DNA of 64,000 bases from Bispira polyomma (lineage: Eukaryota): NCBI GenBank assembly GCA_965649765.1, contig OZ287755.1, forward strand, positions 3,472,001-3,536,000, given 5' to 3'. The position numbers and the translations under genes were made by a program. Positions 2,612 through 59,027 of this stretch are shown in pieces. Below the pieces are notes generated by a model, which had not been told where the DNA came from, searched no databases, and was given only the letters and a program-made list of their open reading frames with translations. Numbering within the stretch: position 1 is the first letter of the stretch; each line of letters starts with the position of its first letter.

Positions 2612-3588
2612 CTAAGAGGAAGGAGGAATGGTGGAAGCAAAAGTGAGGGGGACAACAGAAGCTGCTTCTGATGTCTGTTGCAAATAGGTCCACACAGCTG
2701 AAGATCTCCATAAGCCATGTGACATTATATTCTGTAATGAAACGTTATTGTTAAATGCATATGTGGCACCTGATCTTCTAAAAGTGTGGAAACCGTGGGA
2801 GTTGTATTCGATGTCAATGTGTTCTAAAAATTTTTGAAGGGCTGCCCTCACATGAGAATCCACCACAGGGTAGAAAGGTGGAGTAGCTAATGCAAATAAG
2901 GGTGCTTTGTGTGAAAGATTCCTGGGAGCAAGCAATTTCCTTAAAGCTAGTACAGGGCATAGTGTGCTATTGTGGAGTTCAGGAATCTGTATTGTGTGTG
3001 TATCAGATTTGTTCTGTAAATGTTTTGCCCACTTAAGTGTTATGTGTGCCCCAGGTGGTCTAAATGATAGGTCTTGCCTAAGAAAATGCCTGGTAGGATC
3101 AAATGCAGATTTTAAGTGTGCTGCTATATTGGAAAGTCTCAAAAATGTAAAAAATGCCATGATAAATATGGCCCTAAATAATAATGGATCTTCCAGGATA
3201 TTGCAAGCTTTGAAAATGTTAGCCAGTTGTTGTATGTCGAAGATGCCTTTATGTTTTGGCTTGAAAGCTGAATTATGTGTCAAGCTTCTCAAGAATAATT
3301 AAATGTATTTGTGTGATAACGGAGTGGGGTCTGGTTGATATTTTTGTATCATGTACTTGATAGCAGCTACATAGTTATTTATAGCCCTAGGTGATAGCAC
3401 CGCTTGAACCAGGTATTCTAGAAATACCAGTACTGAATGAACCGTTACTTGGTAAATGCCAGCAAAATGATTAAATGCCAAAAAAGTACTAAATTGTGAT
3501 TTATAAGCACTACCTGTCTTTGGTCTGATGGCAGTGTCAATTCTGTTCCACGCTTAGGCTACAAACTGGCTGCTGAGGTTGGTGGAGC
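2612..3588 (-). pseudogene. tyrosine recombinase of copy 1
   Basis: ORFs 2612..3292 and 3299..3481 with catalytic R..HxxR..H/W..Y motifs; frameshift and stop present; begins at putative acceptor 3589-3590. Confidence 0.9.
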
Positions 3589-3594
3589 CTGTAA

Positions 3595-6208
3595 TTACAC
3601 AGATAAATTAAGATTAAAGTATTCCAATGGAATTTGTTTCCACTGAAATTTATTGTTTAATGTATCTAACATTTCCACACAAGGTGGGTGAGCTGAATAT
3701 ACTCTAGATAAATCGTCTGCTATGATATTTTGTTTTCCAGGAATATGTTCTATGGTGACTGTTATATCAAATGATGCTGCTATCAGCCACAAGTTACTTA
3801 AGCAAAGTTCTAAGAAGTCGTCTTTAGTCTTTTGGGATCCGACAACCAATACTACAGCCATATTATCGCAAAGAATGTTTAATTTGCTGTGGGCCCAGTC
3901 ATTTGCCCAAATTCTAATAGCTATTATAATATTTAACATCTCGAGATGTGCAATATTTAAGTCTCGATTATAAACGTTATGTATTGGGGTTGCGTATACC
4001 TGGTCGCCCCAGACACCTCCAAAGCCTGTGAGGCAAGCGTCCAAGTGTAGTTCATTGGCGTGCGCAATTATGGTGGGGTTAATATAAATTATGTGATTCC
4101 ATTATAGGAAGGAAGAAATTTTAGAAACCATTGCAAATCACTTTTCATGTCCCCATTGACCTTAATGCGCTTCTCAGTACTGCCTCTAAAGGCCATTAGA
4201 AGTCTGTTTATGAAGGTGCGTGCTGGTTTTACACACTTGTGAATGTACAGCAGACTACCTAATAGGGATTATTTTTTGTTTTTAGAAATAAATTTTTTAT
4301 TTTAAATTTCCGAACATAGATTCCAAATTTAGGTAATGTTTTCCTTAGTAATAGAAGTTGTGCCCTTCTGAAAATCAATATCTATACCAAAACCTGTCAC
4401 GCTCTGTGTGGGTGAAGTGAGTTTCTCGCTATTCATGGGGAGACCTAATTTTTTTAATAATTCTGTCAAAATCTGAAAACCTTTTTGAGCCTTATGTTTA
4501 GGTACGATACATATGTAGTCATCGATGTAGCAAATTAAGTTGAAACCTGACTTATTCATATAGAATGCTACTGCATTTGAACATCGCTGAAAGGCCCCAC
4601 TCCCATGAACCCAGCCGAATGGAATCGCTGGATCCAGAAACAACTCGTTGTTCCAAGATATGCCCAATTTGATGGCCTCAGCTGGATTGACTCTAAGGTT
4701 ACAAAACGCGCTCGAAATGTCAATGTTAAATTGGTTCCTGAGTCAGTTCCTGAATACAACGACTTGCCTGTGTAATGTCGTCAATGGCTGGGAACTTCAA
4801 TTTAAATTGTATCTCGTCAAACAGTACTTTGTTGACATTATCATTCAGTGAATCGCCCTGGGGATAAGAGAGATTTAAAATTACTCGCCTTTTGTCAACG
4901 TCTTTCAGGCGGGTTAACAATGGAGAACAGTGAAAATGTGTAGAATTAATGGCTTTGACTGGGCCCAACATAGCTCCATTTTCTTTCTCTTTGTCTAGAT
5001 ATTGACCCACTGCCTTAGTGTATTGTAGACAGAGAAGTGGTTTTTTGTTTTAACATTGTTTAAGTTATCAGGATTAGTAAGACTCAAAGGAAAACCAAAT
5101 TTCACATACTGGATTACCAGCTAGTGAGGATAATCAGAAAAAAATGTTTTCCCAAGCACTTGGGTTCAAACCTGAAATGATTGAATACCTGGCTTTTTTG
5201 TAGTGACGAAGTTCAGTGTCACTAACCAGCTTGCCAATTTCAATCATTTTTTCTACTGAATCAATGTTAACAGGTTTCCTGTCCAGACCCTTAAATTTAA
5301 ATTTTGTAGGAGAAAGTGCAATGAAACCTATGGTTTTGTCTAGATCATTAATGTCAGTGTTACCAGAACTGGTATGTTCCTGTCTTCCTGGATATTTGTG
5401 CTATGACAGTTTTCAAAGAAGACAGACAGATGCATATGTGATTGTGGTGAGTCTCCCCTACTCACCTTTTCCTGCTTGCTTTTATTATAAATCATTTTAT
5501 TTCCATTTTTACTATTTTTAACAGGCCAGACGTCTGCTGCCTGTGACTGCTTAATTAAGACATCAATAACATTTTCCATGTAGAAAGATCCCTTTTATAG
5601 TAATAACAACAATTTTTAGATTGTTTTCTGGTGTCATAAGAATAATTGGCAACACTCGGTTGAATTTTTTTCACTATACTATCATCCAGCCAAATTTCAT
5701 CTTTGTATCTATCTATGATCTGCAGTTCACCTGTTGAAGTAATAACTGTTGGAGAATATACCATACAATAATATGTAGCACAACGGCTGAGGCAGTAAAA
5801 TCCCTTGCTAAATTTTGTATTTTCACTACAAATGTAAGCCACTGGGGCCATAATTCCCCCATAATTAGACATTTCAGATAAATAACAGATATCTGCACTT
5901 GAATAGTTTTTCCAGTAATACAACCAATCTTTTCCATCGGAATTGACTAAAAATTTATCTCCTAGATTTCCCTGTAAGCAATTTTCTGTTTCAACATATA
6001 TTACATTTTTACTACTTGTTTTAACACTACGAGTATCATAATGACCCCTTGGTATGTTCTCAACTACCTGCATGTGGACATTATTGGCAATATTGAAATT
6101 AATCTTGGCTTTATAATTACCATTATTTATTTTACTAGTAATACCTTTTCTTTTATTACTATTCACACAAATTATGTTACTTCTCTGCTTAATTCTATAC
6201 ACTTCCAA
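3595..6208 (-). pseudogene. pol (N-terminal extension, RT, RNase H) of copy 1
   Basis: ORFs 5555..6208, 4726..5010 (HCSPLLTR..KRRVILNLSYP), 4329..4667 (PFGW..YIDD), 3595..4044 (RNase H); several frameshifts. Confidence 0.9.
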
Positions 6209-6655: not shown

Positions 6656-9446
6656 ACCCCTCGTGTAGGTAAACAGGGTGGGGGGGTGTGATTTTTTATT
6701 AAGAAAAACTATGAATGTCGATTAGTTGCTACACCAGGTTTTACATCTTTCGAACTCATCCTTGTCTCTGCTCACTGGAAAAACCAGTATTTAAATTTTG
6801 CAACAGTTTATCGGCCTCCTGGCCTCCATGTCTTTTGTTAGGTTTACTTGCTCGTTACCCTCTCCTACTGTATTCTGTGGGGATTTCAATATTCACATAG
6901 ACACCGCATCTGGAAATAGTAATCGGTTTTCCACAGTTTTGGAATCTTGCAATCTTACCCAACACATAAACTTTTCTACCCATATTCATGGGCATACACT
7001 AGACTGCTTGCTAACTCCTACTGATTTCAATGGTATCAAAAACATAAAAGCATTGGTTGCATCAGTGATCATTTTTCGATATCCTGTGAAATTGATGCTC
7101 CCTCCCCACCATCTTTTGATGTCACACAAATCACTTTTCGGCAATTTTAAAAAATCAATATGTCTGACCTTAGACGAGAGTTGGCAGATACGGTCTTCGT
7201 CAAGTCTCCTGCTGATAATGCCACTGACCTATACACACAGTACTGCACTGACCTGCAGTCTCTTATAGAACGCCATGCGCCATGTAAATCAAAGACATTG
7301 AAGAAGCCAGCACCTGAGTGGATCACCAGTAATTATCGTGAAATGAAGATGCTGCGCAGGCAAGCCGATCGAACATGGCGCCGAAACAAAACAGCTACAA
7401 ATAGATCTAGACTACGCCAATGGATCACCCGGTGTAACAACACTATAAATGACTCAAAACGTGCCTACTATACTAACATGATATCAAAAAGCGAGGGTGA
7501 CCCGAAGAAACTTTGGCAAAAACTAAATAACACCCTCCACCGTAAAAAATAGACTATACTACCCGAAAATTGCAATAGCAAATCACTGGCAAACATTTTT
7601 AGTACTTTTTTCACTGATAAAATTACCAAAATCCGTGACGGTTTCACATTAGCTGCCCCAAATGCCCCTTTACCAACAGCTCCACCAACTGTCTTCAACT
7701 GTTTCTCCACAGTAACTGTTGATGAAGTCAGGAAAATTATACTGGCATCACCCGTAAAATCTTGCTTGCTAGATCCGTGGCTCACATTCCTTGTCAAAGA
7801 ATGTATTGACATTTTATTGCCCTCAATCACAAAACTTATCAACCTCTCGTTGATAAATGGCATCTTTCCAGATGATTTTAAAAAGGCTATTGTCACTCCT
7901 TTAATAAAAAAACCTTCTCTTCCAAAGGCTGACTTGAAAAATTACCGTCCTGTCTCAGGCCTTTGCTATATCTCTAAGTTGGTAGAACGCGCGGTTGCCT
8001 TACAGATCAAACAACATGTTGACGTCAGCAATCTGTCCAATAAGTATCAGTCAGCGTAAAAAAGTGGTCATTCTACTGAGACTGCACTTCTCTGCATCAA
8101 AAATGATGTTCATACATCTTTATCCAAAGGTATGCCTACTGCCTTAGTACTGCTGGATCTGTCAGCAGCCTTTGATACTATTGATCACAAAGTTCTTCTT
8201 GAGTGCCTATCGTCCTGGTTCGGTATCAGTGGTATGGCGCTTAAGTGGTTCACAGCATATTTATCTGATAGATTCCAATCAGTCAAAATTGGCAATATCT
8301 TATCCGACCCAACATGGTCAAAATTTGGTGTTCCCCAAGGTTCCGTCTTAGGTCCCATTTTGTTTTCTATGTACACCACTACTATTATTGCTGCATACAA
8401 AAACATAAACTTTCACTTCTATGCTGATGATACCCAACTGTACATCCACCTTACACCTGACACTGCCCAGGTAGCTTTCACTTCCTTACAGAACTGCCTT
8501 GTTGATGTACAACACTGGATGGCAGCAAATAAACTCAAGCTGAACCCTGAGAAGACTGAGTTTATTTTGTTTGCCTCCAAGTCGCAACGGGAAAAATTGT
8601 CCAGCTGTTTTCCACTTGACATTCTTGGCAGCAGGTTTTTTCCAGCTGACAAAGTACGAAACCTGGGTGTGGTGTTCGACTCTGAATTTTCCTTCTCGAA
8701 CCATGTCGCATCGGTGTGTAGATCATGTTTTGTTGGCCTCCTTGATTTCAGGCGGATTCGACGCTATCTTTCAAAATCCACTGCAATCACTGTTGCCAAT
8801 GCTTTGGTCAGCAGCAGGCTTGATTACTGCAACTCTCTGTTCCGTTCCTTATCTCGTAGTGATCTCAGACGCCTTCAGAATATCCAACACTCATTGGCAC
8901 GTATTGTGACCAAAACATCTAAATTTTCCCACATTACTCCTGTACTCAAGTCACTGCACTGGCTCCCAATAAAATATCGTGTTGCTTTCAAAACAGCAAC
9001 AATAATATATAAATTTTTAAATTCTGGATTACCCACTTATTTTAGCCCCCATCTATCCAAATATACATGCTCAGTCAGGACTAGGCGCAGTAACCCTGAT
9101 AAATTATACCTTAACATTCCCACTTTCGACCCTCGCATCCACAAATCCAAAGTTCAGTTCAATCACTGCCTAGCTCATGATGACCCCCTCATTTGGAACA
9201 GCCTACCTGATCATGTTCGCCTGGCTCAAACTTTCTCCTCTTTCAGGAGTAAGCTGAAGGCCTATCTTTTTGAACAGGCTTTTCCACCTTAGCCGTCGCA
9301 ACCATCTATGGTAGTCTCCCTGATTACGACTTCCATCCGACCACTATTTTTGATTTTCGATTAACGGTTTGGGTTTGTTGCGCCTTAGAATTTGTTGTAC
9401 AAAGATTAAGCGCTATAAAAGTACGACTAGATTAGATTAGATTAGA
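6656..9446 (+). mobile_element. 5'-truncated L2-clade LINE inserted in gag of copy 1
   Basis: APE remnant (CGDFNIH, HGHTLD), RT (LDLSAAFDTIDH, GVPQGSVLGP, YADDTQLY) in ORFs 6798..9292; L2-like 3' end (GCGCCTTAG...AAGCGCTATAAAA), (ATTAG)n tail; TSD TTTCAT at 6650-6655 and 9447-9452. Confidence 0.92.
8132..9292 (+). pseudogene. L2 ORF2 reverse transcriptase and C-terminus
   Basis: 386-aa ORF with canonical non-LTR RT motifs; upstream ORF2 is broken by stops and frameshifts. Confidence 0.9.
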
Positions 9447-10430
9447 TTTCATCAAGACAGGGTCTGCTACTGGAAGGGCATTGTTGAGCTGATCAGCCGC
9501 CTATTGCGCCATAGACAAGTTGTCCAAAGTGGCTTTCCGTTTCGCATTCGCGCCTACCCACCCCTCGTTCGGCCATCAAAATTTGGGGTCTGACATGAAA
9601 ATGTCAGAACTGTTATAACGCCCAGAATGTTGTTTTACTGGAGCCTTACCTTAGAGAATGTCTCTCTGGATATTGGTCTCATACCCCGCTAATTGCCTGG
9701 CTATGGCAGCCTGTATGGCTGGTATCGCCCGAAGAGTGTCCAGTTGTGGAACCACGCCGTCCTTGGCAAAGTCCTGGTGAACCGGGGGTTGTGTGGTTGG
9801 ACCTGGATTCATCGCCCGCGTAGGACATAACGGAAGTGGAGCTATCGAAGCTGGAGCTGCCAATGTGGATTGGTGCGGTCCCGTGGTGTCTGCTGCCGGC
9901 CTAGTAAGTAGCGCTTATTGAGTCGTTTCAACCTTACTGATTCGCTGACTGAGTTCTGTGTTCGAGGTTTCCAGTCATCTGAGTATAGCCAGCATCTCTG
10001 AAGAGCTGTCTGTGCTAGCAGTAACGCTTGACATGGACTGTTGACTCGCTATGAGTGGTTGAGTGGCAGTCGCCCCCGACAGGGCCTGCAAACAGGAGGG
10101 TGTAACCCCAGCATAAGCAAGGTCTCTATCTGCAGTTGGATAGCCCAGAGCATGTGGAAGTAGAGACTCGGTGGTAATATTACTAGGTGCACGTGGAGGT
10201 GTGACCTGACCATAAGCGGCCCCGGAGTTGGTAGTGGTTGTGGACAAGAATTCTGGAGATGGTTCGAGAGGTCTAGATGCTAGAGCAGTTAACTGTGCTT
10301 GAACCTCGGAAACTATAAAGTCTGATACCTGCTTACCTCCCTTACTGAGGTCTGTTGGAATTACCGTGCTTTTCTTTGTCCTCGCCTTGGTCGACCTTGT
10401 AACTGGTGTTTTTCTAGTCGTTTTGCCCAT
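9447..10430 (-). pseudogene. gag N-terminal and central part of copy 1
   Basis: ORFs 9975..10505 and 9651..9863 (DGVVPQLDTLRA..); frame rejoins 6655 across the L2 TSD (VADPVLMK|RMIQQVV). Confidence 0.85.
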
Positions 10431-25519: not shown

Positions 25520-25707
25520 CAGTTCACCTAAGTGTGTGCCCAGCTTAAGGAGGTAACGAGAAGTGATATTTTAGTATATATGTGGTGTAAAGATGTAATA
25601 AAACTCTAGGTTTGAGATTTTATTATTTACACGTTAGAACATAGTATACATGTAAAGAGGGTTAAAATAGAAAATTTTTTAAATTTTTAGATAATTTTAA
25701 AACACCC
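25520..25707 (-). repeat. split direct repeat B2
   Basis: Near-identical to 26639-26824. Confidence 0.95.
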
Positions 25708-26451: not shown

Positions 26452-26824
26452 TTTTAAAATGAAGACTAGAAAAAGGTGGGAAAAAGAATTGTTCTCCCAC
26501 ACAAAGAGAATGGGTGTATGTATGGATAAACAGAGTGAATAGTTAGTCGACTCGCCCCCAGGTATTAAGGTAGTTATAAATTTTATTATGTGTGAGGGTG
26601 AACTGAAGTGGCAGACCCCTTCATGGTCGTGCTTGCTACAGTTCACCTAGGTGTGTGCCCAGCTTAAGGAGGTAGCAAGAAGTGGTATTTTAATATATGT
26701 GGTGTAAAGATGTAATAAAACTCTAGGTTTGAGATTTTATTATTTACACGTTAGGACATAGTATGCATGTAAAGAGGGTTAAAGTAGTAAATTTTTAAAA
26801 TTTTTAGATAATTTTAAAACACCC
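26452..26824 (-). repeat. B1-A2 junction of split direct repeats
   Basis: 26639-26824 matches B2; 26452-26638 matches A1; the two abut directly. Confidence 0.95.
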
Positions 26825-26832
26825 AAGCCAAA

Positions 26833-27797
26833 CTAAAAAGAAGAAGGGATAGCAGAAGCAAAGGTGAGGGGGACTGTTGAAGCTGCTTGTGATGTTTTTT
26901 GTAAGTATGTCCAAACTGGTGATGAGCGCCAGAGCCCATGAGCCATGATATTCTGAAGGGATACGTTATTATTGAATGCAAAAGCCCCAGATCTTCTGAA
27001 TGTATGGAAACTGTGAGATTTTTGTGGAATTCCAGAGTGTGTGAGTGCTGAAGAAAGGGCAGAAAGTATGTGTGTATCTATGATTGATTCATAAGGTGGA
27101 GAACAGGCAGCAAATAAAGGAGATGTATCTGGTATAGGTCTAGAGTGCAATAGCTGTTGCAATGCCTTAACTGGCCATAAGTCTTTATTCTGTAATTTTG
27201 GAATCTGTACAATGTGTACTTCCCCTCTTGTCTGTAAGGTTTTCGCCCATTTTATTATTATGTGGGCCCCTGGTGGGCCAAAAATGACATCTTTTCTTAG
27301 AAGGTGCCTTGTAGGATCAAACTGAGCCCTTGGGTGTGGTGCAATGTTGGAAATTCTAAGAAAAGCCAAGAATGATAATAGAAATATAGCTCTATATAGA
27401 ATTGGATCAGAGAGAATTACACATGATCTGGAGATAAGATGGATTTCAAATATCCCTCTGGGTTGTGGTCTAAATTGAGAATTGTGTGTTAGGCTTCTGA
27501 GAAACATGGCCACTGTATTGTTTTCAAAAATACTCAAGTTCCAGGAATATCTTTTAGTCATGAATTTCAGGACTGAGAGGTGATTATTGATTGCAGCAGG
27601 TGCAGTACCATTCTGCACCAAGTATTTCATGAAGGCAATTACTATATGTGTATCTATAACTTCCACACCAGCAAAGCATGTAAATGCCATAAATGTCTTA
27701 AATTGACTATTGTAAGTTGAAAATGTCTTTGGCCGAAGGGCAGTGTTGATCCTTGCCCAGGCAGATCCCAGTAAGGCTTGTGTAGTTTCAGTGGAAC
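26833..27797 (-). CDS. tyrosine recombinase of copy 3 (open frame from putative splice acceptor)
   Basis: ORF 26833..27690 is open a further 107 nt upstream to tttcag|; FLRISN, KWAKT, HTFRRSG, HGLW, Y motifs. Confidence 0.9.
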
Positions 27798-27799
27798 CT

Positions 27800-30462
27800 G
27801 AAATTATAAATGAATATCAAATTCAAAGAAGTTCAGTGGGATTTGATGCCACACGAAGTTCTCTTGCATTAATACTATTTGTTCCTTATTTGAAAATTGG
27901 TCTGAATAAACTCTTGAAAGTGCATCTGCCTTTTATGTGTTCTATTTCTAGTTGTATGTCATAAGTGGCTGATAACAGCCATATGTTTTTAAGGCATAAT
28001 GCCAAGAAATCGTCCTTAGTTTTATTAGAGCCAACCACTAGAACCACTGCCATATTGTCACAGAAAACTCTTATTACATTATGGGACCACTGCTTTCCCC
28101 ATAATTTAAGTGCTAAGATAATATTTAGCATTTCAATGTGTACAACAGACACTTGCTTATTGTACACATTATAAAAAGGTGTTGCATAAACTTGATTATT
28201 GAAGCAGCCACCTAGACCTGTTAGGCATGTGTCGATATAAACTATGTTATTGTTACTAGTAATTGGAGAAATAAAGTTAATACCATTATAATTTTTCAAA
28301 AATTTTATGAACCAGCTTATGTCTGCTCTCATTTTGTTCGTAATTTTAAATCTTTTTGCCTGTGCATTAGCCCGAAAAACCATGAGTAGTCTATTGATAA
28401 AAATTCTGGCTGGCTTGACACACTTATGGATATACAGTAATTTTTCTAAGATGGAATTTTGCTCTGGAAATCCACTGCTTTTCATAGACTTCCTTTACAT
28501 AGTTGAAATGTTTCTTCGATTTTCTCTTGGGTAATACTGATCGTTCCTGCCTGTATGTCTATATCTATCACTAAACAGGTGACCTTAGTGTCAGGAGGTG
28601 ACAGTTTGTCTGGATTGGTGGGGAGACCTAAGGAATCTACTAATTTTCGTAACTCATGAAATGCTCCCTCTTGTCTTTATTCGATATGCAGACGTAGTCA
28701 TCGATGTAGCAGAAGACTTTATGGTTGTGCTTAGCCATGACGTAGGCAATCATGTCCGAACAGCGCTGAAATGTGGCCGAGTACCATAGCAGATACCTAG
28801 CTTGATAGCATCAACCGAGTCAACTCGTAAGTTCCTGGAAGCTCTGGCCACGTCCAGTTTTATGATTCGTGCTTCCGGTGCAGCTTGTATTTCTGCTACA
28901 ATGTCATCTATCATTGGAAATTTTAGAACAAATTTTGTACCGTCGAATTCTTGCTTATCTACATTGTCATTAAGCGAGGCCCCTTGTGGGTATGATAGAT
29001 TTAGAATAACGCGGCGTTTGTTTGTGTCCTTTGGGAGCAGAGTAGAGGGGAGCAGTGGTATAAGTCACTTTCTATATTCTTTACTGGGCCCAACATGGCA
29101 CCATGAGCACTTTCTTTCTCTAGATATTCCCTAACTGCAGTGTTATATTGGAGGGCAGAATAGTGGTTGTTTGCTTTTTGTATGTTCAATTGAGCCAAAT
29201 TTTCAATATTGAAATAATTATTTATCTGGGTGATCTTTAAGAATTTCCTCCCAACTGTGTAGGTTCAAACCCGAGACCAATGGAATTCTAGCCCCTCTGT
29301 AATTGGGGACCCCAGTTGAGTGAATAATGTTTGCAGTATATAATAGTTGTGGTATACTTGATATGAGAATGGGCTTCCTATCTGGGCCTTGAAATGTAAA
29401 GCTTGTGTCTGATAGAGCAATGAAGCCCTTATCCTTGTTGGGCAAGTTAAAGTCATAAAACTTTTCTTTATTAGTAAGTTTCTTATCAGTAGAAATTTCT
29501 GAAATTTTGTCGAAGAGGTCGGGCAACGCCATGATTATCTTGTCCTGAACATCCTTGTTCACATTATATACTTTATTCAAATTACATACATTACTTGGTA
29601 TATTAATACTATTCTGCTGCAAGTCAGCTTAGTTCATTTCTAATATATCATCTATAATTCCTGTGATGTGACGAGTATAATCATACCCATATGTTTTAAT
29701 ACCTTCAACATCCTTGTTGTACTTGTCATATATCTGTTTGGGTGTTAAGTCACCCTTATCCAAATTAGTTTCATTTACTTTATAATTTACATTATCTATA
29801 AATGCAGTTAATGTTACTTCAGTCACCATAGTATACAAGATGTCCAGTGGACTAGTTGGTAGCTGTTCACATTTAATATAGTTACATGATTGCCGATTGG
29901 CATTGTATTGCTGGATAAAAAACCCTGCCATTTTTGGTTTATGGATCTTAATATATAAAACTGGGAGTGGGTAATCCCAATGGTTGAACTTATGCGACCA
30001 ATTTGTCATTTGTATGGTGGCCTTAGCCATTATTGCAGGCTTGCTTAACCAGTTCTTATTTTTAGTCTGGTTACCACATTCCTTGTTCTGTGGGAGTACA
30101 TTATTGTTACCAACTGTTTGCAGTGCATTTGTATACAATAGTAAATTATTGCTATCAATTTGTACTTGCTCTTCATGCAATACCCTTGTTTCTATCTCAC
30201 AAGCTTTGATTACACCCTGACTAATCTCAGCTGTTGTACTACAGTTATCTTCTAGATTACCTAAAACTTTACTGACCTTTACAGTATCTAATTTATCTAA
30301 CTTTATATCAGCATCAGGTTTTTTTAAACTATCATTTGACTCAAGTTTGGTCATATCTGCTCTATTTTTATCAGAATCTAATGCTACAGTACAATCAACA
30401 TTATTATTGTTAACCCCAATATACTTTCCCAAAGTTCGTTTTACTAGTGGTTGGCTAATCTC
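27800..30462 (-). pseudogene. pol (N-terminal extension, RT, RNase H) of copy 3
   Basis: ORFs 29629..30432, 29218..29622, 29001..29198, 27886..28485; CYIDDY motif near 28700; frameshifts and deletions. Confidence 0.88.
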
Positions 30463-31716
30463 CTAACTGCTGTTACTTGGTTTGATCTCATGTTGTTTGG
30501 ATGAATTTGACCAGTAACATTTAAATTCTGGGTGCACCACATCCTTATGCAGCACAGTGGCACAGTGCCAGCAGATGTGCCTGTATTGCCCGTGATCTGT
30601 CTTGTTGTTACATTTGCCTGTGTTGTAAAGCTTACAGATGGTCCTGGAAGAAGTGGAGGCCTGATTGCCGTGCGAGTTGTACAAGCCGTGAGAGTGAGAC
30701 GAATGCGCCATGGCCATCTGGGATGCGTTGAGACGATTCAACGCCCACTGGGTGTTGTTACCCCACTGAAGACGACCCTCTTCTATCTCATGCATGTTAT
30801 GCAACCACGAAGTACGAACCACTTCCCACGGGAGTGAGGCAGCGTCTCGAAGAGATAAAATTACTTGCTGACACATTGCTTTCAAAATGGCCGGGTCTGT
30901 GACCTTCATTGCATTGGCTAGTTGCCCCGCCGCCCACTGGGGTAGTGAAAGTTTATCAAACGTAGGCCGTTTCCTGGACGTTCCCCCCACCCAACCTTCA
31001 TTCGCCCACCTCAATTTTGGATCTGTCGTCGGTATATCTGTGCTATTAAACCGCCCAGACTTTTGATGTGGGGTCGGCTTACCTTGGGCGAGTCTTTTCT
31101 GTGCTTGGATCTCGTATTCTGCCAGCCGTTTGTTCACTAGTGCTTGGACGTCGGATAGTGACTTCAATACATCCACCGTAGGTACTATAGCATCGGCTGT
31201 ATAGTCGACGTGAGCAGGAGGGAGCGTTGGCTGTGAAGGTACAGTTACTACAGGTAATGGTTGTGCTACAGTCGGGTGGGTCTGTGTGTTGGGAGCCGGC
31301 AAAGTAGTATTCTGGCTTACCTGTGTTTCCATCTGGTCTGGTCGACTCGTGATCCGTTCATTGGATTGCGAAAGTTTGTCCAGCATTACTAGCATTGATG
31401 ATATAATCTGGCCATCCGAACTTGACCCTATGGGGACGTTATGTTGCTGCTGTAGGACTTGTAAACGAGGACCTACTGTGTGAATCTGGGTTCCATGAAG
31501 TAACGGGGACGCGAATTGAGCAGGTAATACCTGGTTCAACGGGGTCTGTTGCTCCGTGGTGCTGCTGTCACTAGCTTCCCTGCTCACCAATTTCCGTCGA
31601 GACGTTTTGGCTTTACTGGTACTTTTACTAGTCTCTTTTTTCTTATTATCCAATGGTGTCTTTTTCGTTCTACCCTTCCTTGTACTGTATATGCTAAACT
31701 CAGAATTACCAAACAA
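30463..31716 (-). CDS. gag-like ORF1 of copy 3 with C-terminal zinc finger
   Basis: Open 417-codon frame; CKLYNTGKC..H..HICWHC..HPEFKC; start codon uncertain. Confidence 0.88.
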   Translation of the reverse strand: MFGNSEFSIYSTRKGRTKKTPLDNKKKETSKSTSKAKTSRRKLVSREASDSSTTEQQTPLNQVLPAQFASPLLHGTQIHTVGPRLQVLQQQHNVPIGSSSDGQIISSMLVMLDKLSQSNERITSRPDQMETQVSQNTTLPAPNTQTHPTVAQPLPVVTVPSQPTLPPAHVDYTADAIVPTVDVLKSLSDVQALVNKRLAEYEIQAQKRLAQGKPTPHQKSGRFNSTDIPTTDPKLRWANEGWVGGTSRKRPTFDKLSLPQWAAGQLANAMKVTDPAILKAMCQQVILSLRDAASLPWEVVRTSWLHNMHEIEEGRLQWGNNTQWALNRLNASQMAMAHSSHSHGLYNSHGNQASTSSRTICKLYNTGKCNNKTDHGQYRHICWHCATVLHKDVVHPEFKCYWSNSSKQHEIKPSNSS

Positions 31717-31772: not shown

Positions 31773-31963
31773 TTTTAAAATGAAGACTAGAAAAATGTGG
31801 GAAAAAGTATTGTTCTCCTACAAAAAGAGAATGGATGTATGTATGGCTATATAGACAGAGTGAATAGTTAGTTGACTCGCCCCCAGGTATTAAGGTAGTT
31901 ATAAATTTTATTATGTGTGAGGGTGAACTGAAGTGGCAGACCCCTTCATGGTCGTGCTTGCTA
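31773..31963 (-). repeat. split direct repeat A1
   Basis: Near-identical to 26452-26638. Confidence 0.95.
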
Positions 31964-35591: not shown

Positions 35592-36599
35592 ATGCCTCCG
35601 GTGAGAGAATATTCATGTTTTAAATGTTTTAAAAGACATGCAAAGCCCACAGGGAAACACTGCATTTTTGAGGATCAGGCCAGCCAGGACAGCCACACCC
35701 AGGAGTCCACTTCAAATGGTCAGATAAGTAATTCTATTTCGGAAGCTATTCTTAAACAGTTACAAACCATGAATGAAGCGATGGAAAAAATGAACAAACG
35801 GGTGCAGCTGACCGAGGCTGCCGAGGCAGCTCTGACCAAGAACCTCAACAGTGCTAAGGGTGGTAACACCGCTTCTGATTCCGGAATCAGTTCTGCCAGC
35901 TTGGAAAGTGACACCATTGTTCCTAGCGTCGATTTTTTAAAACAAAATGTTCAAATTCAAACCCAGGTCGAGCAGCGGCTCACTGAGTTAAAAACTCTGA
36001 ACAAAAACCCTCAAGGTAAAGTTAAATCGCAGAGGGGAGGCGGGACCGACGTTATTGTAAAACGAATAGTGGACTGGCCACAGAATCATGTCTTGTCGGG
36101 TTCTTCCAAAGCCAGGCCTTCTTATGATGACCTTACGCTACTACAGTGGGTCAGCGGTTTTACCCGGATTATCCAGGACGAGAAGTGTCCAAAAGTCAGG
36201 GCTGCCATGCTAGAATACATGGGGGGTTTGATGGAAGACGCGCAGGATTTTTCCTGGGAGGCCGCCAAGGTCTGTCACGCTGTAATTTTAACTAAAATGG
36301 AAATGGACAGGCTAAATTGGATGGAAACGGACAAAGTCGATAGAATCCGTAGGGCTCATGCCCAGAGGCACATACTTCCAAACACGGCTTCAGCAAATGC
36401 TGGTCGAAATTTGGGCGCTGGTTTAAAGAAAACTGGGGCGAAACAGAGCTCGGTTACATGCAGGTTCTTCCAGAAAGGAACTTGCAGGTATCCAACAAGC
36501 CACAAAACGGGTACCCAATTTACAAGCATACATGTGAGACTTGTGAGGCCAGCCACAGAACGAATATGTGCACTAAGAAAATTACAAAAAACTAGGTAA
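35592..36599 (+). CDS. gag-like ORF1 of copy 4 (N-terminal Cx2Cx3Hx7C finger; C-terminal finger frameshifted)
   Basis: 335-aa ORF; homology with 23480-24040; ancestral frame ends ...HTCETCEASH..CTKKITKN* at TAG 36593-36595. Confidence 0.85.
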   Translation: MPPVREYSCFKCFKRHAKPTGKHCIFEDQASQDSHTQESTSNGQISNSISEAILKQLQTMNEAMEKMNKRVQLTEAAEAALTKNLNSAKGGNTASDSGISSASLESDTIVPSVDFLKQNVQIQTQVEQRLTELKTLNKNPQGKVKSQRGGGTDVIVKRIVDWPQNHVLSGSSKARPSYDDLTLLQWVSGFTRIIQDEKCPKVRAAMLEYMGGLMEDAQDFSWEAAKVCHAVILTKMEMDRLNWMETDKVDRIRRAHAQRHILPNTASANAGRNLGAGLKKTGAKQSSVTCRFFQKGTCRYPTSHKTGTQFTSIHVRLVRPATERICALRKLQKTR

Positions 36600-36619
36600 C
36601 CACTGCCATGGGGCAGTGG
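36586..36619 (+). promoter_or_regulatory. putative -1 programmed ribosomal frameshift signal
   Basis: A_AAA_AAC (36586-36592) right before gag TAG; 7-nt spacer; stem CCACTGCC-ATGG-GGCAGTGG; -1 frame equals ORF 36616..36882. Confidence 0.7.
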
Positions 36620-37544
36620 CGTATGAAAATAGGAATAATGTAGTATGGACCAAAACGGTTTATAGCTCAAATTTTAAAAATTTTGATCTGTTTTGCAAGG
36701 AAACGGTACGTAAAATGTGCCAGTATGTTAAAGGAAAGAGAAATAGTTTCAGTTACAGTGACGCAGTTAAGGGCGGAACTGGTGTAGCTTGTAAATATAT
36801 AAAGCAAGACAACAATGTGTGTAAACAGCAGGGGCAGGAAAATACTGCCCAAAACAAAGGTAAATATAAATCTCGAGTTTAGAATGTCGTTGACCACAAA
36901 GTACAGGTGGGAAAACGTGTTTAACTTGAACAAAGGGTCAATAAAAGTCCAAAGTCTCCTAGTGAACAGACGGTCACCCTCTACAATAGATTTGCTGTTC
37001 TTGAAGAAAGGTTTGAGGGAAACAATAGGGATAGGGCTATAAGAGGTGATGAATGTTTTGACACCCCACAGAACCATGGAAATGGGGGGGGGGGGGGTAA
37101 AAGTGTTAACAAAACACCCAGTATGAAAGGCTCTGCCAATAACAAAAATTTCAATGGCTTGGGTAAAGAAAACAATAAAGGTGTGAAGCAGGCTAAGACC
37201 CCAGTGAAAGGTGTCAAAAACACTAAGACCAATAAATCACACATGGCTAGTAGTGACAAAGAGGGTGGAGGCCCCACAGTCACAACCCCAGTTCACTGTA
37301 TTATTCAGGGGAGTGGAGACTCCGGTGGTAATATTGGTGAATATAGTGTGGGGTCTGACAAATATTCCTGGGAACTGCGTCAGAAGCAAAATAAAAAATT
37401 ATTGCTAGAAAAAGCTCAAGGTGTGAACACGTTCAATGAATGGCAAACACAAACAGAATTTCCATATGGTTTTACTTCTATCAGTACTTTAGGTGACAGA
37501 ATTGTGGAAAAAATGCAAAGCATAAGAGTATGTCCATCTTAGAA

Positions 37545-38889: not shown

Positions 38890-38920
38890 TGTATATCTAT
38901 TCTGTAATATTTGTATGTAG

Positions 38921-39888
38921 CCAAACATCCTGTTGAAGCACTACTCACTGGAAGGGCTGTTCATCGACTGAATTCTGCTTTTGCGCTTTCTACCAGCAAA
39001 GCTTATGACAGGATGTTTAGGCTCTTCTTGGCGTTTGAGGCCTTCATGTGTTGGCCCCCAGCTAAGGTGACAACGTTGAAACTCTTATGTTTCTTAGAGT
39101 TTCTTTCCAGTAATAGTGTCTCCCATGCACAAATTGTAAATTATATCTCAGCCATTAAGGCGCGTTATATTTTGGTCAGTGTTAATGTGGATGCCTTTTT
39201 GGATCCTAAGATCAGTTACTTTAACCGGGCTCTCCTGGTTAATAGACCACTGCAGGCCAAGCTTAAGTCTCTCTTATACCACTGATGACTGCTTCAATGT
39301 ATATGGGTCAGGTATTTAAAGCTGTGTACTTGTTAAGTTTCTTCAGCTTCCTAAGATTGTCCAACTTATGTCCCCATTCCATTAATGCTTTTTCCCCTTT
39401 AAAACATTTGGCTCAGGCTGATGTATTGTTTAAACATGGCTATGCAGTAATCATGATAAAGTGGTCCAAGACCCTGCAAACCAATGACCAAGTTAAGTTA
39501 ATTACCATTCCTGCTCTTTCTGGCTCTGTTTTTTGCCTGGTGAGGGCCATCAAAAATGTTTTGAGTATCACCCCTGGGGGTAAAAATCTTCCCCTGTTCC
39601 AATTTAAATTAGCAAGCCAGTGGATTCCTCTGACTGACACTTGGGTGCGCAGGCATCTTAAAAAATATCCTGCAGGTACTTGGTTTGTCGGCTTCTTCTC
39701 TCACTTTCCATGCTTTCCGGCGTTCAGGTGCCACTTTTGCATTTAATAACAATGTTCGTTTGCAGGACATTCAACATCATGGCACCTGGATGTCGAATTG
39801 CGTCTGGCGCTACATAACGGACTCCGCCGATGCTGGATCTCAGGTGGCAGATTCCTTCAAAGCTGCATTACAACCTACCCCTACATGA
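38921..39888 (+). pseudogene. tyrosine recombinase of copy 4
   Basis: ORFs 38911..39285, 39285..39746, 39685..39888 (HAFRRSGAT, HGTW, Y). Confidence 0.9.
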
Positions 39889-49518: not shown

Positions 49519-52500
49519 TACATAGCACGACCCTAAAGGGGTCTCATCATTCAGTTCCCAATAGCAACTTATATATCTTCACCTTAACCCCTAGGGGCCC
49601 ATTTGAGTACTGTTCAATGACCTTGCTTTCATTGACCAATCGGAGACATTCGAACCCCAAATTTTCACTCTTAAAATGATATGCTTCCATATTGAATTTT
49701 GTTTTACTAGAGTCTAGCGTGTACAGATGTCTGGTTGGCCAGACTACTACAGCATCACACACTGCTGAATACACCGGTAACAGAATCGTACCCAGCACTG
49801 ACAAATTGAGGTCGATGCCAGATGTACAGACCATCGTTAATCAGAGATTAGCTGAATATGAAGTCAGGGCACAAGCTATCTTAACTAAGGTAAGGTTAAC
49901 TCTAGACAGAAGTCGGGACGTTACAGCAATACCGACATCGCTTGTACGGACCCGAGAATGAAATGGGCAAATGAAGGTTGGAGCGGCAGGTCCTCATGTA
50001 AGCAACCAATGTTCGATGAACTCTCCCTTCCCCAATGGGCTGCAAGGCAGCTTTATAACGATCTTTTGGTAGCTGATGCTCAACTATCACGTGCCATGAT
50101 TCTGCAGGTAGTGCTTTCTTTGAAGGATGCTTCGTTGCTTCCCTGGGAGGTGATGCGTACGGGTTTGGCTAGTAGTATGTAAGAAGTGGAGGAGGGTCGG
50201 TTGACCTGGAGCGATACGACCCAATGGTCGCTTAATAGAATCAGTGCATTACAGACGGCTATGGCCAACTCATCATATCCGACCAGTTTGACCAGTTCGC
50301 ATCCCCGCAGGTCCACAATATGTAAACTTTTCAACTTGGGAAAGTGTTCGCGCAAGACCGACCACGGTAACTACGGCGACTGTGTTAAAGAAAGACTCAC
50401 CTCATCCTGACCTTAAATACTGTAAAGCTACCACCACAAAACAGATGGAAAATAAAAGTAGTTAGGGCCTTGACCGACTACCAGTGAACGGAACATTTGC
50501 AGTAGTAGGGACATAACTGTAGGAAAAAGATTTCTTAAGTTAGAAAATTTGAGTAAAAACAGTACTGTAAAGCATGATAAAAGTAAAGACATGACGGATG
50601 ACACAGAAGTTGTTCATAATGATACAAATTATATGTATCATATATCCAGTATTGATAACACTGGTACTGTAGCACAGATTAATAGTGACCAAATTGAGCT
50701 AAATGGAAAGAAAATTATTATAGAAAAAAATTGCACACATGTAAACACACCCTATAAAGATCATGGGGAAAGAACCAGTATTAACCAAAATTTGGTCAAT
50801 AAAAGGAAAGGGGATTAAGAAAAGTTCCATTTGGGTACTGGAAATACTGTCATGAATGTTTTTAATTTCAGCAATAGTGATTCACACATGCAAAAGGTAG
50901 TAGTCACAATGTGTTGACCACTGTTTCCTGTGGTATTTATAAACTCGATAAATTCCAAACTTAACCTTTTGGATGGGGGAGGGATGGGAAGGGATGGAGT
51001 CCCATAAAGGGAAGTGAATATACAAAATGTTTTGATACCCCAAAAGGACCCATTCATATTTCAGATAAATTTTATATTGAAGTGACCATAATGGAAAGCC
51101 ATAAGAACATTGTGAATGATCATAATTTACACATTCTTAAGGACACTGATAACATTGTGGCTAAAAATACCGTATCATTATAAGAAAGATACTGAATGCC
51201 AGCAACGTTGTAATGTGAATTATACTGTGTATATAACTGATATTATTGACAAATGGATTAAGGCTGATAGTATATCTAACCTTAAGCAACTTAATACCAA
51301 GGACAAATTACTGGTTGAGAGACAAGCCAATTTCACGTTGTGTGAATTTAAGGATCACAGTGCATAATTAGATACTCAGAATAAGGCAATTAAGGATTAC
51401 AACTTTCCAGATAAGGATAAGGGATTTCTTGCATTGGCTAAAACAGAATTTGAATTTTGTGGCCCAGATAGGGCACCAGTTAATACCATTACAGTGCAAC
51501 AAATGGTGAACATAGCCCACACAATTATAAATTCTGGATGTGCCAATTATAAAGGCGCCAGAATCCCAGTAGCTTCTGGCTAACGAATCCAGACTTGGGA
51601 AAAGGTCTTGCTTGATTATCGGGACAAGTTGTTACTGCAGTTTTTAACTTTTGGTTTTCCACTTTTGCTTGAACATTCTAATAATTTAAAAGTTAAGGAA
51701 ATTTCCAATCATAGTTCTGCCCTGCAATATGCAGAGGCAATTAGTCAGTATATTAGTAAGAAACAAGTCAATGGTGGCATGTTAGGTCCAGTTAAGGAAG
51801 TAGAGAGCAAGTTGTTTCACTGTTCCCCCTTTCTCACCCATCCTGAGGACACACACAAACGCAGAGTGATCTTGAACCTCTCTTATCCAAAAGGCAATTT
51901 GGTTAATAGTACTGCAGACAAACAGCATTTTCATCAAATCGAGTCTGCTTTAAAGTTCCTAACTTTAGAGGAAATTGTCGCCAAAAAAGATTTTCAAACT
52001 TGACGTGGCTTGGGCCTTTAGGAACTTAAGAGTGGATCTGGTTGATTCTATGAAGCCAGGGATTTGTTTTAATAAAGATAAGTACATTGATCTGGCTATA
52101 GCGTTCGGGTGGATCCACGGATCAGCGATCAGAGATCCTCTGACATCATAGCACATACCATGAGTAAACGCAAACATGCAGTCCTCTGCTACATTGACGA
52201 TTACATTTGAATATCACCTGCTGATGAGGCAGAAGGCACGTTCAAAGAACTTTATGAGATAGTCACCTCGTTGGGGCTTCACCAAGATAAGATCTCTCGT
52301 CCTACTAAAAACATAACGTGCCTTGGTATAGACATTGACATAGATGAGGGCGTTATTAGTATTTCTAAGGATAATTGGAACAAACTTGTTGCTTGAATGT
52401 TGCCAACAAGCTTTTAATAAAAAAATAATGTCTAGAAGAAATTTCCAATCAGTTTTACGCAGGCTTTTATATGTTCACAAATGTGTGAAACCTGCTAGGA

Positions 52501-55803: not shown

Positions 55804-56253
55804 TCAAGGTAACAAACATCCACATGCTTGAGGCTTGTGGATAGTCATCTTCTTGCAGCTGTCCATCTTCACGAAGACTATGGTAAGACTGGAGCAGAAA
55901 GTGAGATTCTCTACACAGCTCTCCTCAGGTGTAGTACCACTCCTCTTACCTCTACGATGACTCTTGCTGCTCTTGGTACCCTTGTTACTCTTATGATGCC
56001 TTTTGGTGCCCTTCTTATTCTTATGATGACTCTTGGTACTCTTGGTACTTTTGATACTCTTGGTACTTTTGGTACTCTTGGTACTCTTGCTACTCTTGGT
56101 ACTCTTGCTACTTTTGGTACTCTTGCTACTTTTGGTACTTTTGGTACTCTTGGTACTTTTGGTACTCTTGGTACTTTTGGTACTCTTGCTATTGCTACCA
56201 CTATGAACAACACAATGATGGGTATGGTTACCATTAGGCTCAGCTGGTTCGAC
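55804..56253 (-). CDS. terminal exon: (S-T/S-K)n basic repeat plus cystine-knot C-terminus (..SC...PQACGC)
   Basis: Acceptor ttgtttttacag|GTC phase 0; open to TGA; followed by AATAAA. Confidence 0.85.
   Translation of the reverse strand, partial: VEPAEPNGNHTHHCVVHSGSNSKSTKSTKSTKSTKSTKSTKSSKSTKSSKSTKSSKSTKSTKSTKSIKSTKSTKSHHKNKKGTKRHHKSNKGTKSSKSHRRGKRSGTTPEESCVENLTFCSSLTIVFVKMDSCKKMTIHKPQACGCLLP
56030..56192 (-). repeat. 9-bp coding tandem repeat (AGTACCAAR/AGTAGCAAG) encoding STK/SSK
   Basis: About 16 units, synonymous AAA/AAG variation in the STK frame. Confidence 0.95.
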
Positions 56254-56659
56254 CTGTAAAAACAATAAATATTTGCAGCTATACATATATATCAAATTGA
56301 TACTAATGGGACACCCATTGCAGTGGTAACACCTGGTGATTACTTTTGTGTCTCTCGTTGACTCTCTTTGTCAACACTCACTCCTGTAATTATTATATGA
56401 CTGTTGCTATGGCTGCCACGTCTTGCTTATGTTTAGTTATATTTTATGTCATGTTCAAACCACATTCAATGGTGATACAAACTAGTGCTGAAGTACTCTG
56501 AACCACCGGCCTATGTTTACACTATGGGTTAACAGATTATGTTGTTTTGTTTGTGAAGATGCCCAGCATCAATAAAGTGTGATCATATGCATAATAGTAA
56601 TAATAATAATACAAGTAGCAGATTTCTTGCACAAAATAAGCTAAACTAAAACACCTCAC

Positions 56660-57956: not shown

Positions 57957-58287
57957 CTGGAGATCAAAAGCAATTATTATTAATAATAAAGTATTCCCTT
58001 ATTCGTTTTCTAAGCACTGTCAAACAATTAGCATTTAGGCTGATTAAAATGTCCTACTACATGTACTATACTACATATCAAACCTTCAAATGAAGTTACA
58101 GTTATGTTTACAAAGTACTGGTCTGAATAGTTTAGCTGCTTTGTTTATACAGAGGCAGACAAGTGAAACCACATCCCTAAAATGACAGGCTTACTAGTAA
58201 GATGTTTAAACTCAATTTGTGATGTGCTCATACTAATATTACAGTATTTGAGGTACATTTTAATGGTGTAAGTTGTTTTTAAATTAC

Positions 58288-58461
58288 CTTTGCACAACGG
58301 CTCTGTCAAAGACCAGTTACCATTTGGTAAGCATTCTCTTGTAGGAGTACCACTGAGGATATATCCTTGATCACACGAGTAGTTGGCAGTGGATGGAAAA
58401 GTGGTGTCACCAATAGAGATCTCTCCATTATCTGGGGCGTCTAAAGATCCACAGTCTATTG
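58288..58461 (-). CDS. Sushi/CCP domain exon (3'-most)
   Basis: 174-nt phase 1-1 exon tttag|CAATA..AAAG|gtaatt; C..P.NG..Y.C..GY...G...C...G.W....P.C consensus. Confidence 0.92.
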
Positions 58462-58853
58462 CTAAATATACAACAATATTACCTAATGTAAACATGTGTA
58501 TAACAATGTGATTTTATAATTGATATTAAAAATATCTCATTACTACATGTTTTTGTTAGAATCAAATCAACATGCATTCAGGAACATTCATCTAATGTGA
58601 TTGTAACCAAGCAATTACTGTTAATATAACATTCTAAATAGCATGTTATTAACATGGACATCAACAACAATTTTTGCTATGTAATGGTCTGGCTAGTTTA
58701 AATGTTTTGTTTATACAGAGGCAGACAAGTGAAACCACATCCCTAAAATGACAGGCTTACTAGTAAGATGTTTAAACTCAATTTGTGATGTGCTCATACT
58801 AATATTACAGTATTTGAGGTACATTTTAATGGTGTAAGTTGTTTTTAAATTAC

Positions 58854-59027
58854 CTTTGCACAACGGCTCTGTCAAAGACCAGTTACCATTTGGTAAGCAT
58901 TCTCTTGTAGGAGTACCACTGAGGATATATCCTTGATCACACGAGTAGTTGGCAGTGGATGGAAAAGTGGTGTCACCAATAGAGATCTCTCCATTATCTG
59001 GGGCGTCTAAAGATCCACAGTCTATTG
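58854..59027 (-). CDS. Sushi/CCP domain exon
   Basis: Same splice sites and consensus, +566. Confidence 0.9.

What the first reader, a model, noticed from the sequence alone, without database searches (positions are those of the whole stretch)
26833..31716. YR recombinase appears to be made as a spliced GagN-YR fusion, conserved across two divergent Ngaro families
Seen: the YR frames open right after an AG acceptor placed just past the RNase H stop, and mid-gag carries a strong donor at the same Q-G|-K position. Copy 3: CAAG|GTAAGC (31083/31082) and tttcag|GT (27798/27797). Copy 1: TAAG|GTAAGG (9650) and ttacag|GC (3588). Copy 4: CAAG|GTAAAG (36015) and atgtag|CC (38921). Copy 6 keeps the donor AAG|GTAAGG (49889). 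In copies 1, 3 and 4 both sites are phase 1, so removing the intron (3.3 kb in copy 3, 2.9 kb in copy 4; gag C-half plus pol) joins GagN in frame to the YR N-terminal domain. Inference: a subgenomic spliced mRNA, analogous to retroviral env, tethers the recombinase to a Gag domain (with a zinc finger in copy 4), e.g. for particle loading. I cannot verify whether this is already published.
Basis: partly seen in the sequence, partly recalled or inferred. Interest (0 to 1): 0.88.

Follow-up and report, generated by a model that had tools for sequence, protein, structure and literature searches.

The report
Spliced Gag-recombinase fusion in Ngaro retrotransposons
A large group of jumping genes in an animal genome keeps a matching pair of splice signals at fixed places across dozens of very different families, so its integration enzyme is likely made by splicing it onto the front half of the Gag protein rather than by the ribosome slip the literature assumes.

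Summary
Confirmed and much wider than reported. The window holds five decayed Ngaro-like tyrosine-recombinase (YR) retrotransposons; the cited donors, acceptors and phase-1 arithmetic are right. I examined 146 copies (47 families, median YR identity 35%, one from another organism). The mid-gag donor glycine is GGT in 42 of 42 families that keep it, against 44 of 155 at control glycines. An AG ends 80 or 83 nt before a conserved YR tyrosine in 46 of 47 families, always phase 1. YR meanwhile sits in all three frames relative to pol, up to 334 nt past its stop, and often lacks an early ATG. This argues against the published frameshift model for these elements. A spliced GagN-YR protein (~520-540 aa) is the best reading (0.8). 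GagN carries a predicted self-associating coiled coil, so docking onto Gag is plausible. No RNA junction was seen: no RNA run was listed and no spliced genomic copy was found. Gag-Pol appears to use -1 frameshifting in most families; in one clade it uses UAG readthrough, with a covarying 2.3-2.8 kb RNA pairing. This scan noted spliced Ngaro/DIRS-like elements before on other DNA; I found no paper on it.

The parts
31773..31963 (-). Copy 3, split direct repeat A1 (5' end)
   Evidence: D2, D3; 94% and 85% to A2
31083..31677 (-). Copy 3, predicted exon 1 coding part (GagN, about 198 codons; coiled coil and conserved helix pair). The family start codon is lost in this copy.
31077..31086 (-). Copy 3 splice donor CAAG|GTAAGC, phase 1, at Gln-Gly-Lys
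27798..31082 (-). Copy 3 predicted intron, 3285 nt (Gag core and zinc finger, all of pol)
   Evidence: inference
30463..30465 (-). Copy 3 gag stop TAG followed by G, pol in the same frame (likely readthrough)
30444..30456 (-). Proximal half of the long-range pairing, just after the gag stop
28029..28041 (-). Distal half of the long-range pairing, in RNase H codons Leu-Val-Val-Gly, about 2.4 kb downstream
27804..30462 (-). Copy 3 pol (long variable N-terminus, RT, RNase H), broken by stops and frameshifts; homologous stop at 27806-27804
27796..27811 (-). Copy 3 splice acceptor TTTCAG|GT, AG ending at 27798, 6 nt after the pol stop, phase 1
26833..27797 (-). Copy 3 predicted exon 2: tyrosine recombinase, 320 codons (SAM-like N-domain and catalytic domain)
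26639..26824 (-). Copy 3 repeat B1
   Evidence: D1, D4
26452..26638 (-). Copy 3 repeat A2, directly after B1
25520..25707 (-). Copy 3 repeat B2 (3' end)
36012..36021 (+). Copy 4 donor CAAG|GTAAAG, phase 1
38908..38922 (+). Copy 4 acceptor ATGTAG|CC, AG ending at 38920, 31 nt after the pol stop, phase 1 (weak by the generic matrix)
9644..9653 (-). Copy 1 donor TAAG|GTAAGG
3587..3595 (-). Copy 1 acceptor TTACAG|GC, phase 1 to the YR anchor
49886..49895 (+). Copy 6 donor TAAG|GTAAGG; its acceptor region and YR N-terminus could not be mapped

Best explanation
These Ngaro-like retrotransposons carry a conserved phase-1 splice donor in mid-gag and a conserved phase-1 acceptor just past the pol stop, and likely use them to make a spliced mRNA that would encode the N-terminal half of Gag fused to the whole tyrosine recombinase. 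The unspliced RNA would give Gag and Gag-Pol and serve as genome; Gag-Pol would come from a -1 frameshift at A AAA AAC in most families, or from UAG readthrough aided by a long-range pairing in clade A. Removing a 2.5-3.8 kb intron would give a GagN-YR protein of about 520-540 aa that uses the gag start codon. GagN holds a zinc finger or basic head, a predicted coiled coil and a conserved helix pair. The coiled coil would most likely let the recombinase co-assemble with Gag, so that it travels with the RNA and cDNA it must integrate (about 0.5 given splicing). Shown: signals, phases, conservation, frame relations. Inferred: the splice, the pairing of these two sites, the protein and its role.
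For: Donor: GGT in 42 of 42 families with Gly (43 of 47 mapped; one single-copy family has GAT) versus 44 of 155 control glycines; +3 is A in 43 of 43; GT in 124 of 129 mapped copies. The flanking residues vary (Q/S/T/P/K/R/H/I before, K/N/I/T after) while G|GTA stays. Acceptor: AG at -80/-83 in 46 of 47 families and 135 of 145 copies, all phase 1; -3 is C or T in 46 of 46, -5 T in 41, -6 T in 40; the codon over it encodes S, V, T, L, I, P or A. The pol-stop-to-acceptor gap is 3-334 nt and YR lies in all three frames relative to pol. The first in-frame ATG falls after exon-2 codon 27 in 16 of 43 families, yet codons 1-27 show a coding pattern (637/361/1167 differences at positions 1/2/3 in 76 family pairs). 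The donor ranks a median 2 of about 289 GT sites and the acceptor 9 of about 250 AG sites (41 families, recalled matrices). L085 from another organism has CAAG|GTAATT and TTTTGTAG|GC, with YR opening 306 nt after pol ends. The donor Gly188 falls in the low-confidence linker (188-190) after helix 164-186 of the Gag model. Three copies of GagN 66-190 scored 0.48 against a best control of 0.01, through residues 77-106. That mark was reached by 21 of 30 solved same-chain pairs and 0 of 23 single chains; in eukaryotes by 17 of 29, in animals by 7 of 16. The runs agree in at least 29% of contacts, pLDDT is about 48, and three copies is unlike the calibration.
Against: No junction was observed in RNA. 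No spliced genomic copy was found in four families searched. In 20 of 43 families an in-frame ATG lies at or before exon-2 codon 10, so YR could start on its own there; one young family has an ATG overlapping the pol stop. Several clade B acceptors and some donors score weakly (ranks 46-51 of about 250 AG; donors down to 37 and 83). One family (L123, single copy) lacks the AG. Families share ancestry, so the counts are not independent events, and 145 of 146 copies come from one genome. A branch point was not tested.
Confidence: 0.8

Rival explanations
1. Both signals are real splice sites but do not pair with each other. The YR acceptor takes a donor in the 5' leader (env-like, YR starting at its own ATG), and the mid-gag donor joins another acceptor to make a shortened Gag or a non-coding RNA.
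For: Pairing is not observed. 20 of 43 families have an early in-frame ATG. Other phase-1 donors exist in gag of single families. Earlier scan notes describe one donor with several acceptors in related elements.
Against: A non-coding first exon would not hold the acceptor at phase 1 in 46 of 46 families. 16 of 43 families have no ATG until inside the SAM-like domain. The mid-gag site is the best or second-best donor in half of the families over a region that includes the leader. No second conserved acceptor was found: the AG at +18/19 after the clade A gag stop is explained by base pairing.
Confidence: 0.1
2. YR is made from unspliced RNA by reinitiation, internal entry or a non-AUG start, and the GT/AG motifs are by-products of protein or RNA-structure constraints.
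For: An ATG overlaps the pol stop in the L024 family and NTG codons sit there in some neighbours. Exonic AG conservation can arise from codons, as at offset -47 in 24 of 47 families.
Against: The donor's T is a free third codon position and is fixed, while control glycines vary. Residues across both sites vary while the nucleotides do not. Start codons are not conserved in place. The U-rich tract and YAG follow spliceosomal consensus.
Confidence: 0.06
3. YR is reached by a programmed ribosomal frameshift from the end of pol, giving Gag-Pol-YR, as Poulter and Butler 2015 propose for Ngaro (quoted in PMC13003380).
For: YR is in the -1 frame with a short overlap in 25 of 45 families. A T TTA AAT heptamer lies in the overlap of a few clade A families. 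The elements do use -1 frameshifting at the gag-pol junction.
Against: Multi-copy families have YR in frame 0 (L041, L046, L124) or +1 (L059, L095, L050, L119). Some have no overlap, and L085 has 306 nt of non-coding spacer. No slippery site is shared at the pol-YR junction. The model does not explain the donor.
Confidence: 0.04

Closest known systems
Ngaro retrotransposons (order DIRS; Goodwin and Poulter 2004, not held; described in PMC4157794, PMC9210276, PMC13465315, passages read)
   Same: gag, RT/RNase H and YR on one strand; A1...B1 A2 B2 split direct repeats; no methyltransferase.
   Different: The published view is that YR is translated by a frameshift from RT/RH (Poulter and Butler 2015, as quoted in PMC13003380). 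Here the evidence points to splicing from mid-gag. No hydrolase-sized ORF lies after YR in copy 3.
Murine leukemia virus SD' RNA and P50 (PMC10496198, passages read)
   Same: A donor inside gag is joined to an acceptor late in pol, giving an N-terminal Gag fragment fused in frame to integrase sequence; the product is packaged in virions.
   Different: P50 carries only the last 116 aa of integrase and is accessory; the working integrase comes from Gag-Pol. Here the whole recombinase would come from the spliced RNA. SD' RNA is retrotransposed, whereas no spliced copy was found here.
Retroviral env, foamy-virus pol and copia gag subgenomic spliced RNAs (recalled, no call)
   Same: A retroelement uses the host spliceosome to express a gene that cannot be reached from the genomic RNA.
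   Different: Those use a leader donor or shorten gag; none is recalled to fuse half of Gag to the complete integration enzyme.
Tombusvirus long-range readthrough signal (PMC3234231, search listing and start of abstract only)
   Same: A stop codon before the polymerase frame, with a nearby sequence that pairs with a partner kilobases downstream.
   Different: Here it is in a retrotransposon, the partner lies in RNase H codons, both halves lie inside the predicted intron, and function is untested.

Membership tests
Ngaro retrotransposons | Split direct repeats A1 ... B1 A2 ... B2, internal pair downstream of YR | tested here: met
   Copy 3, L024 and L142 show the full pattern; L029 shows A1/A2 and a short B match; copy 4 showed none at the settings used
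Ngaro retrotransposons | gag, RT/RNase H, YR in that order on one strand | tested here: met
   (RVT_1, RVT_3/RT_RNaseH, Phage_integrase, Phage_int_SAM_1)
Ngaro retrotransposons | No methyltransferase domain | tested here: met
   No methylase family in 5 of 5 pol frames scanned; pol ends right after RNase H
Ngaro retrotransposons | RT/RNase H phylogeny groups with reference Ngaro elements | not testable with these tools
   No named Ngaro reference sequences were available; the YR tree has only my own loci
Tyrosine recombinases | Catalytic R ... HxxR ... H/W ... Y residues | tested here: met
   FLR, HxFRR, HG.W and W.Y columns in alignment A1; assignment of roles is recalled
DIRS1-like elements | Inverted terminal repeats with an internal complementary region | tested here: not met
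   No inverted repeats of 40 nt or more in 6 of 6 regions
PAT-like elements | Methyltransferase after RNase H | tested here: not met
U2-type spliceosomal intron | GT donor and YAG acceptor with consensus context | tested here: met
U2-type spliceosomal intron | Phase match that keeps the reading frame | tested here: met
U2-type spliceosomal intron | Branch point | not tested
   TTTAAC/TTTGAY-like motifs about 20-30 nt upstream were seen by eye but overlap RNase H codons; not scored
U2-type spliceosomal intron | Junction present in RNA | not testable with these tools
   No run on record as RNA was listed
Retroviral-type capsid Gag | Capsid fold | tested here: inconclusive
   Best Z 5.7 (rmsd 4.8, 90 aligned) to unrelated helical chains; no Foldseek match at E 0.001

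The most novel reading that the evidence does not exclude
Ngaro retrotransposons in general make their only integration enzyme as a spliced GagN-recombinase fusion, an ancestral and lineage-wide design in which a Gag coiled coil loads the recombinase into the particle. One RNA is decoded three ways: splicing for the recombinase, and either -1 frameshifting or a tombusvirus-like long-range-assisted readthrough for Gag-Pol.
Probability: 0.4. Interest if true: 0.85.

Novelty: new variant of a known kind. Interest (0 to 1): 0.74.

Why it matters
How YR retrotransposons express their recombinase has been a guess; the standing guess for Ngaro is a ribosomal frameshift. These data give a different, precise and cheap-to-test answer: one junction per family. 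If true, Ngaro YR proteins are annotated about 200 residues too short, the enzyme would reach its cDNA substrate through Gag rather than through a Pol polyprotein, and host splicing control becomes a lever on their mobility. The covarying long-range pairing after the gag stop would be a readthrough signal of a kind I know only from RNA viruses (recalled).

Tried and rejected
RNA evidence: no RNA holder listed. The three runs of unrecorded kind were laid on L024; they look like DNA (700-820 million letters of contigs, cover across the whole element). None of the 15 joints shown matches the predicted junction; 56 more were not shown. This says nothing on expression. Spliced genomic copies: exact acceptor-side motif searches in four families gave 4, 0, 0 and 0 hits. 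The one AAG hit is a point change in an unspliced copy. Of the three TAG hits, one lies in L039, seen as unspliced; two were not read. Eleven loci picked for long YR frames (L061-L072 except L068, whose coordinates were picked for the same reason but show a short frame) were not gag-YR joins; those with long frames run on from pol. Fused proteins in the protein collection: 241 YR relatives of 178-569 aa (the 120 listed are at most 348 aa) and one longer hit, a Pol-YR frame with a deletion; these look like plain ORF calls, so the blank is weak. Viral and prokaryote contig scans gave no relative. A second acceptor for GagN-Pol (AG at +18/19 after the clade A stop) was considered and set aside: it is absent in the L018 family, L127, L130 and copy 1, and is explained by the long-range pairing. 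The gag stop TAG|G as an acceptor would be phase 0, with no conserved phase-0 donor. Fold searches on the Gag model found no clear match; Pfam found none. One search had three mis-anchored or deleted rows (L020, L127, L130); redid the count on 11 of 12 clade A families (L127 had no motif match; L130 and L085 were left out).
Full report
Observation. The window is G000:C8:3472001-3536000 of a 1.04 Gb assembly. In copies 3 and 4 both sites are phase 1 and the spans between them are 3285 and 2905 nt. Copy 3 has the Ngaro layout A1-gag-pol-YR-B1 A2-B2, with RT, RNase H and phage-integrase domains in relatives. All window copies are decayed: copy 3 has lost its gag start and has a broken pol, copy 1 is split by a LINE, copy 2 lacks both sites, and copy 6 lacks the YR start.

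Sample. The genome holds thousands of candidate YR matches (13,234 first-look candidates, 125 scored). I fetched 140 copies chosen by hand from four searches for length of open frame and diversity (fetched in 10-12, 26, 50, 54, 55). To these I added the five window copies and one element from another organism (L085). Of the 146, 145 could be anchored on a conserved YR tyrosine. They form 47 families at 80% YR identity; representatives are a median 35% identical (range 25-83%, 868 pairs) and fall in at least three clades. The sample is not random and is biased to well-preserved copies.

Donor. The site was mapped in 43 of 47 families and 129 of 146 copies. The family codon is GGT in 42 and GAT in one single-copy family; 124 of 129 copies have GT. 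Four other conserved Gag glycines use GGT in 44 of 155 cases (Fisher p 4e-19, not corrected for shared ancestry). Position +3 is A in 43 of 43 and +4 is A in 40; +5 is G in only 22. Flanking residues vary. With a recalled generic matrix the site ranks a median 2 of about 289 GT sites, in the top five in 27 of 41 families, but as low as 37 and 83 in two. In the AlphaFold model of L029 Gag (mean pLDDT 66, pTM 0.37) the donor glycine lies in a three-residue low-confidence linker between helix 164-186 and the helical core.

Acceptor. An AG ends 83 nt (99 copies) or 80 nt (36 copies) before the anchor tyrosine in 135 of 145 copies and 46 of 47 families, always phase 1. Other offsets have AG in a median of 2 families; the exception is -47 with 24, inside a conserved codon run. 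The two offsets differ by one codon and were chosen. The context is U-rich with C or T at -3 in all 46. The codon over the site encodes seven different residues. The site ranks a median 9 of about 250 AG, in the top ten in 25 of 41 families; two clade B families rank 46 and 51.

Against other ways to reach YR. The pol stop was mapped in 45 families. YR is in the -1 frame in 25, frame 0 in 11 and +1 in 9; four families give negative gaps from decayed copies, and the other 41 have gaps of 3 to 334 nt. Multi-copy families agree internally on frames 0 and +1. L085 has intact gag, pol and YR frames, with 306 nt between the end of pol and the opening of the YR frame. No single frameshift or readthrough can serve all of these. 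In 43 families with an open copy, the first in-frame ATG is at or before exon-2 codon 10 in 20, at scattered places, and after codon 27 in 16, as late as codon 97; the SAM-like domain starts near codon 16. Codons 1-27 differ mostly at third positions (637/361/1167, 76 pairs), so they are translated even where no ATG precedes them.

Mechanism. The simplest reading is a spliced RNA from the gag start through the mid-gag donor to the YR acceptor, encoding about 200-215 residues of Gag plus 320-325 of YR. This is inferred, not observed. GagN contains a zinc finger or basic head, a predicted long helix (74-109) and a conserved helix pair. A three-copy complex job on residues 66-190 scored 0.48 (best control 0.01) through residues 77-106, a coiled coil. 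The mark was reached by 21 of 30 solved same-chain pairs and 0 of 23 single chains, and by 7 of 16 animal pairs; run agreement was at least 29%, pLDDT about 48, and the alignment was not used. It supports self-association but does not show it. Co-assembly of GagN-YR with Gag is therefore my preferred role; borrowing only a start codon, a nuclear signal or a nucleic-acid-binding head is the alternative.

Gag-Pol. Clade B has A AAA AAC at the end of gag and a hairpin behind it, with pol in the -1 frame; clade A has TAG-G with pol in frame. An earlier scan note (one donor, three acceptors) led me to test a conserved AG 18-19 nt after the clade A stop as a Pol acceptor. It is missing in some families and turned out to be part of a 9-13 nt stretch that pairs with RNase H codons 2.3-2.8 kb downstream: 91 of 99 Watson-Crick pairs in 11 families, with covariation at synonymous positions, and 0 of 5000 partner shuffles reaching that value. 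I read it as a readthrough signal like that of tombusviruses (PMC3234231, listing and start of abstract only); this is untested.

What failed. No RNA run was listed, the runs laid look like DNA, and no spliced genomic copy or fused protein record was found. The junction remains unseen.

Literature. Ten full-text searches were run; eight concerned DIRS/Ngaro expression, one MLV P50 and one tombusvirus readthrough. I read term-matched passages of PMC9341512, PMC7192593, PMC6681497, PMC4157794, PMC3783388, PMC4495291, PMC13003380, PMC9210276, PMC9940879, PMC12477816, PMC5633606, PMC13465315 and PMC10496198; no whole text and no supplements. None of the passages describes splicing of gag to YR. 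PMC13003380 quotes Poulter and Butler 2015: YR translation in Ngaro is probably by programmed frameshift. PMC3783388 notes that fungal Ngaro YR may be in frame or shifted relative to RT-RH. The two key reviews were not held, and Repbase entries could not be seen, so prior mention cannot be excluded. The nearest precedent is MLV P50 (PMC10496198). Three earlier notes of this scan report spliced DIRS/Ngaro-like elements in other genomes; they are unchecked leads, not support.

Verdict. Observation confirmed. Spliced GagN-YR is likely (0.8), a new variant of a known kind of element and of a known kind of retroelement gene expression. It contradicts the standing model and can be tested with one set of junction reads. 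Interest 0.74.

Noticed in passing
window 30444-30456 and 28029-28041 (-); L024 about 2910-2925 and 5650-5670: In clade A a stretch just after the gag UAG pairs with RNase H codons 2.3-2.8 kb downstream: 91 of 99 Watson-Crick pairs at +11..+19 in 11 families, with changes on both sides at +11, +14, +17 and +19. Shuffling partners among families gave a mean of 74.5, and 0 of 5000 shuffles reached 91 (relatedness not corrected). Likely a readthrough signal.
   Followed up: yes
window about 36585-36625 (+); L041-L106: Clade B gag ends in A AAA AAC followed after about 7 nt by a CCACTG-loop-CAGTGG hairpin (hairpin in 15 of 16 clade B families), with pol in the -1 frame; several clade C families have the same slippery site without that hairpin.
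   Followed up: partly
L024 family, G000: At least 40 copies are 99-100% identical over 350 nt and the A repeats of L024 are identical: a recent burst. L024 has a third A repeat and second B 1084 nt further on.
   Followed up: partly
window 6795-9289 (+): A LINE-type endonuclease/RT element (RVT_1 at 8060-9289) is inserted in the opposite orientation into gag of copy 1, just inside the predicted intron.
   Followed up: no
window 2600-53100: Five Ngaro-like copies of different families lie within about 51 kb, in both orientations; whether this is a hot spot was not tested.
   Followed up: no
window 58148-63607 (-): A 566-bp tandem unit, about ten near-identical copies, each with an open frame that looks like a sushi/CCP exon (domain name recalled, not scanned).
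   Followed up: no
window 55914-56291 (-): A short 9-nt-period repeat reading VPKVPRVPK in one frame.
   Followed up: no
alignment A2: Clade A Gag has a basic N-terminal head where clades B, C and L085 have a CxxC-HxxP-G-C zinc finger; all share a C-terminal Cys/His finger that the splice would remove.
   Followed up: partly
L096:1-1900 and 7100-8001: This copy sits inside a 36-bp minisatellite present on both sides.
   Followed up: no
P0001, P0002, P0009, P0012, P0014, P0015, P0027, P0057; P0123-P0125: YR proteins from other assemblies begin with I-S-G, I-S-D or I-V-G, and related Gags have Q/K/P-G-N at the donor place: the amino-acid footprints of TTNCAG|R and AG|GTAA. Their DNA was not seen.
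   Followed up: partly
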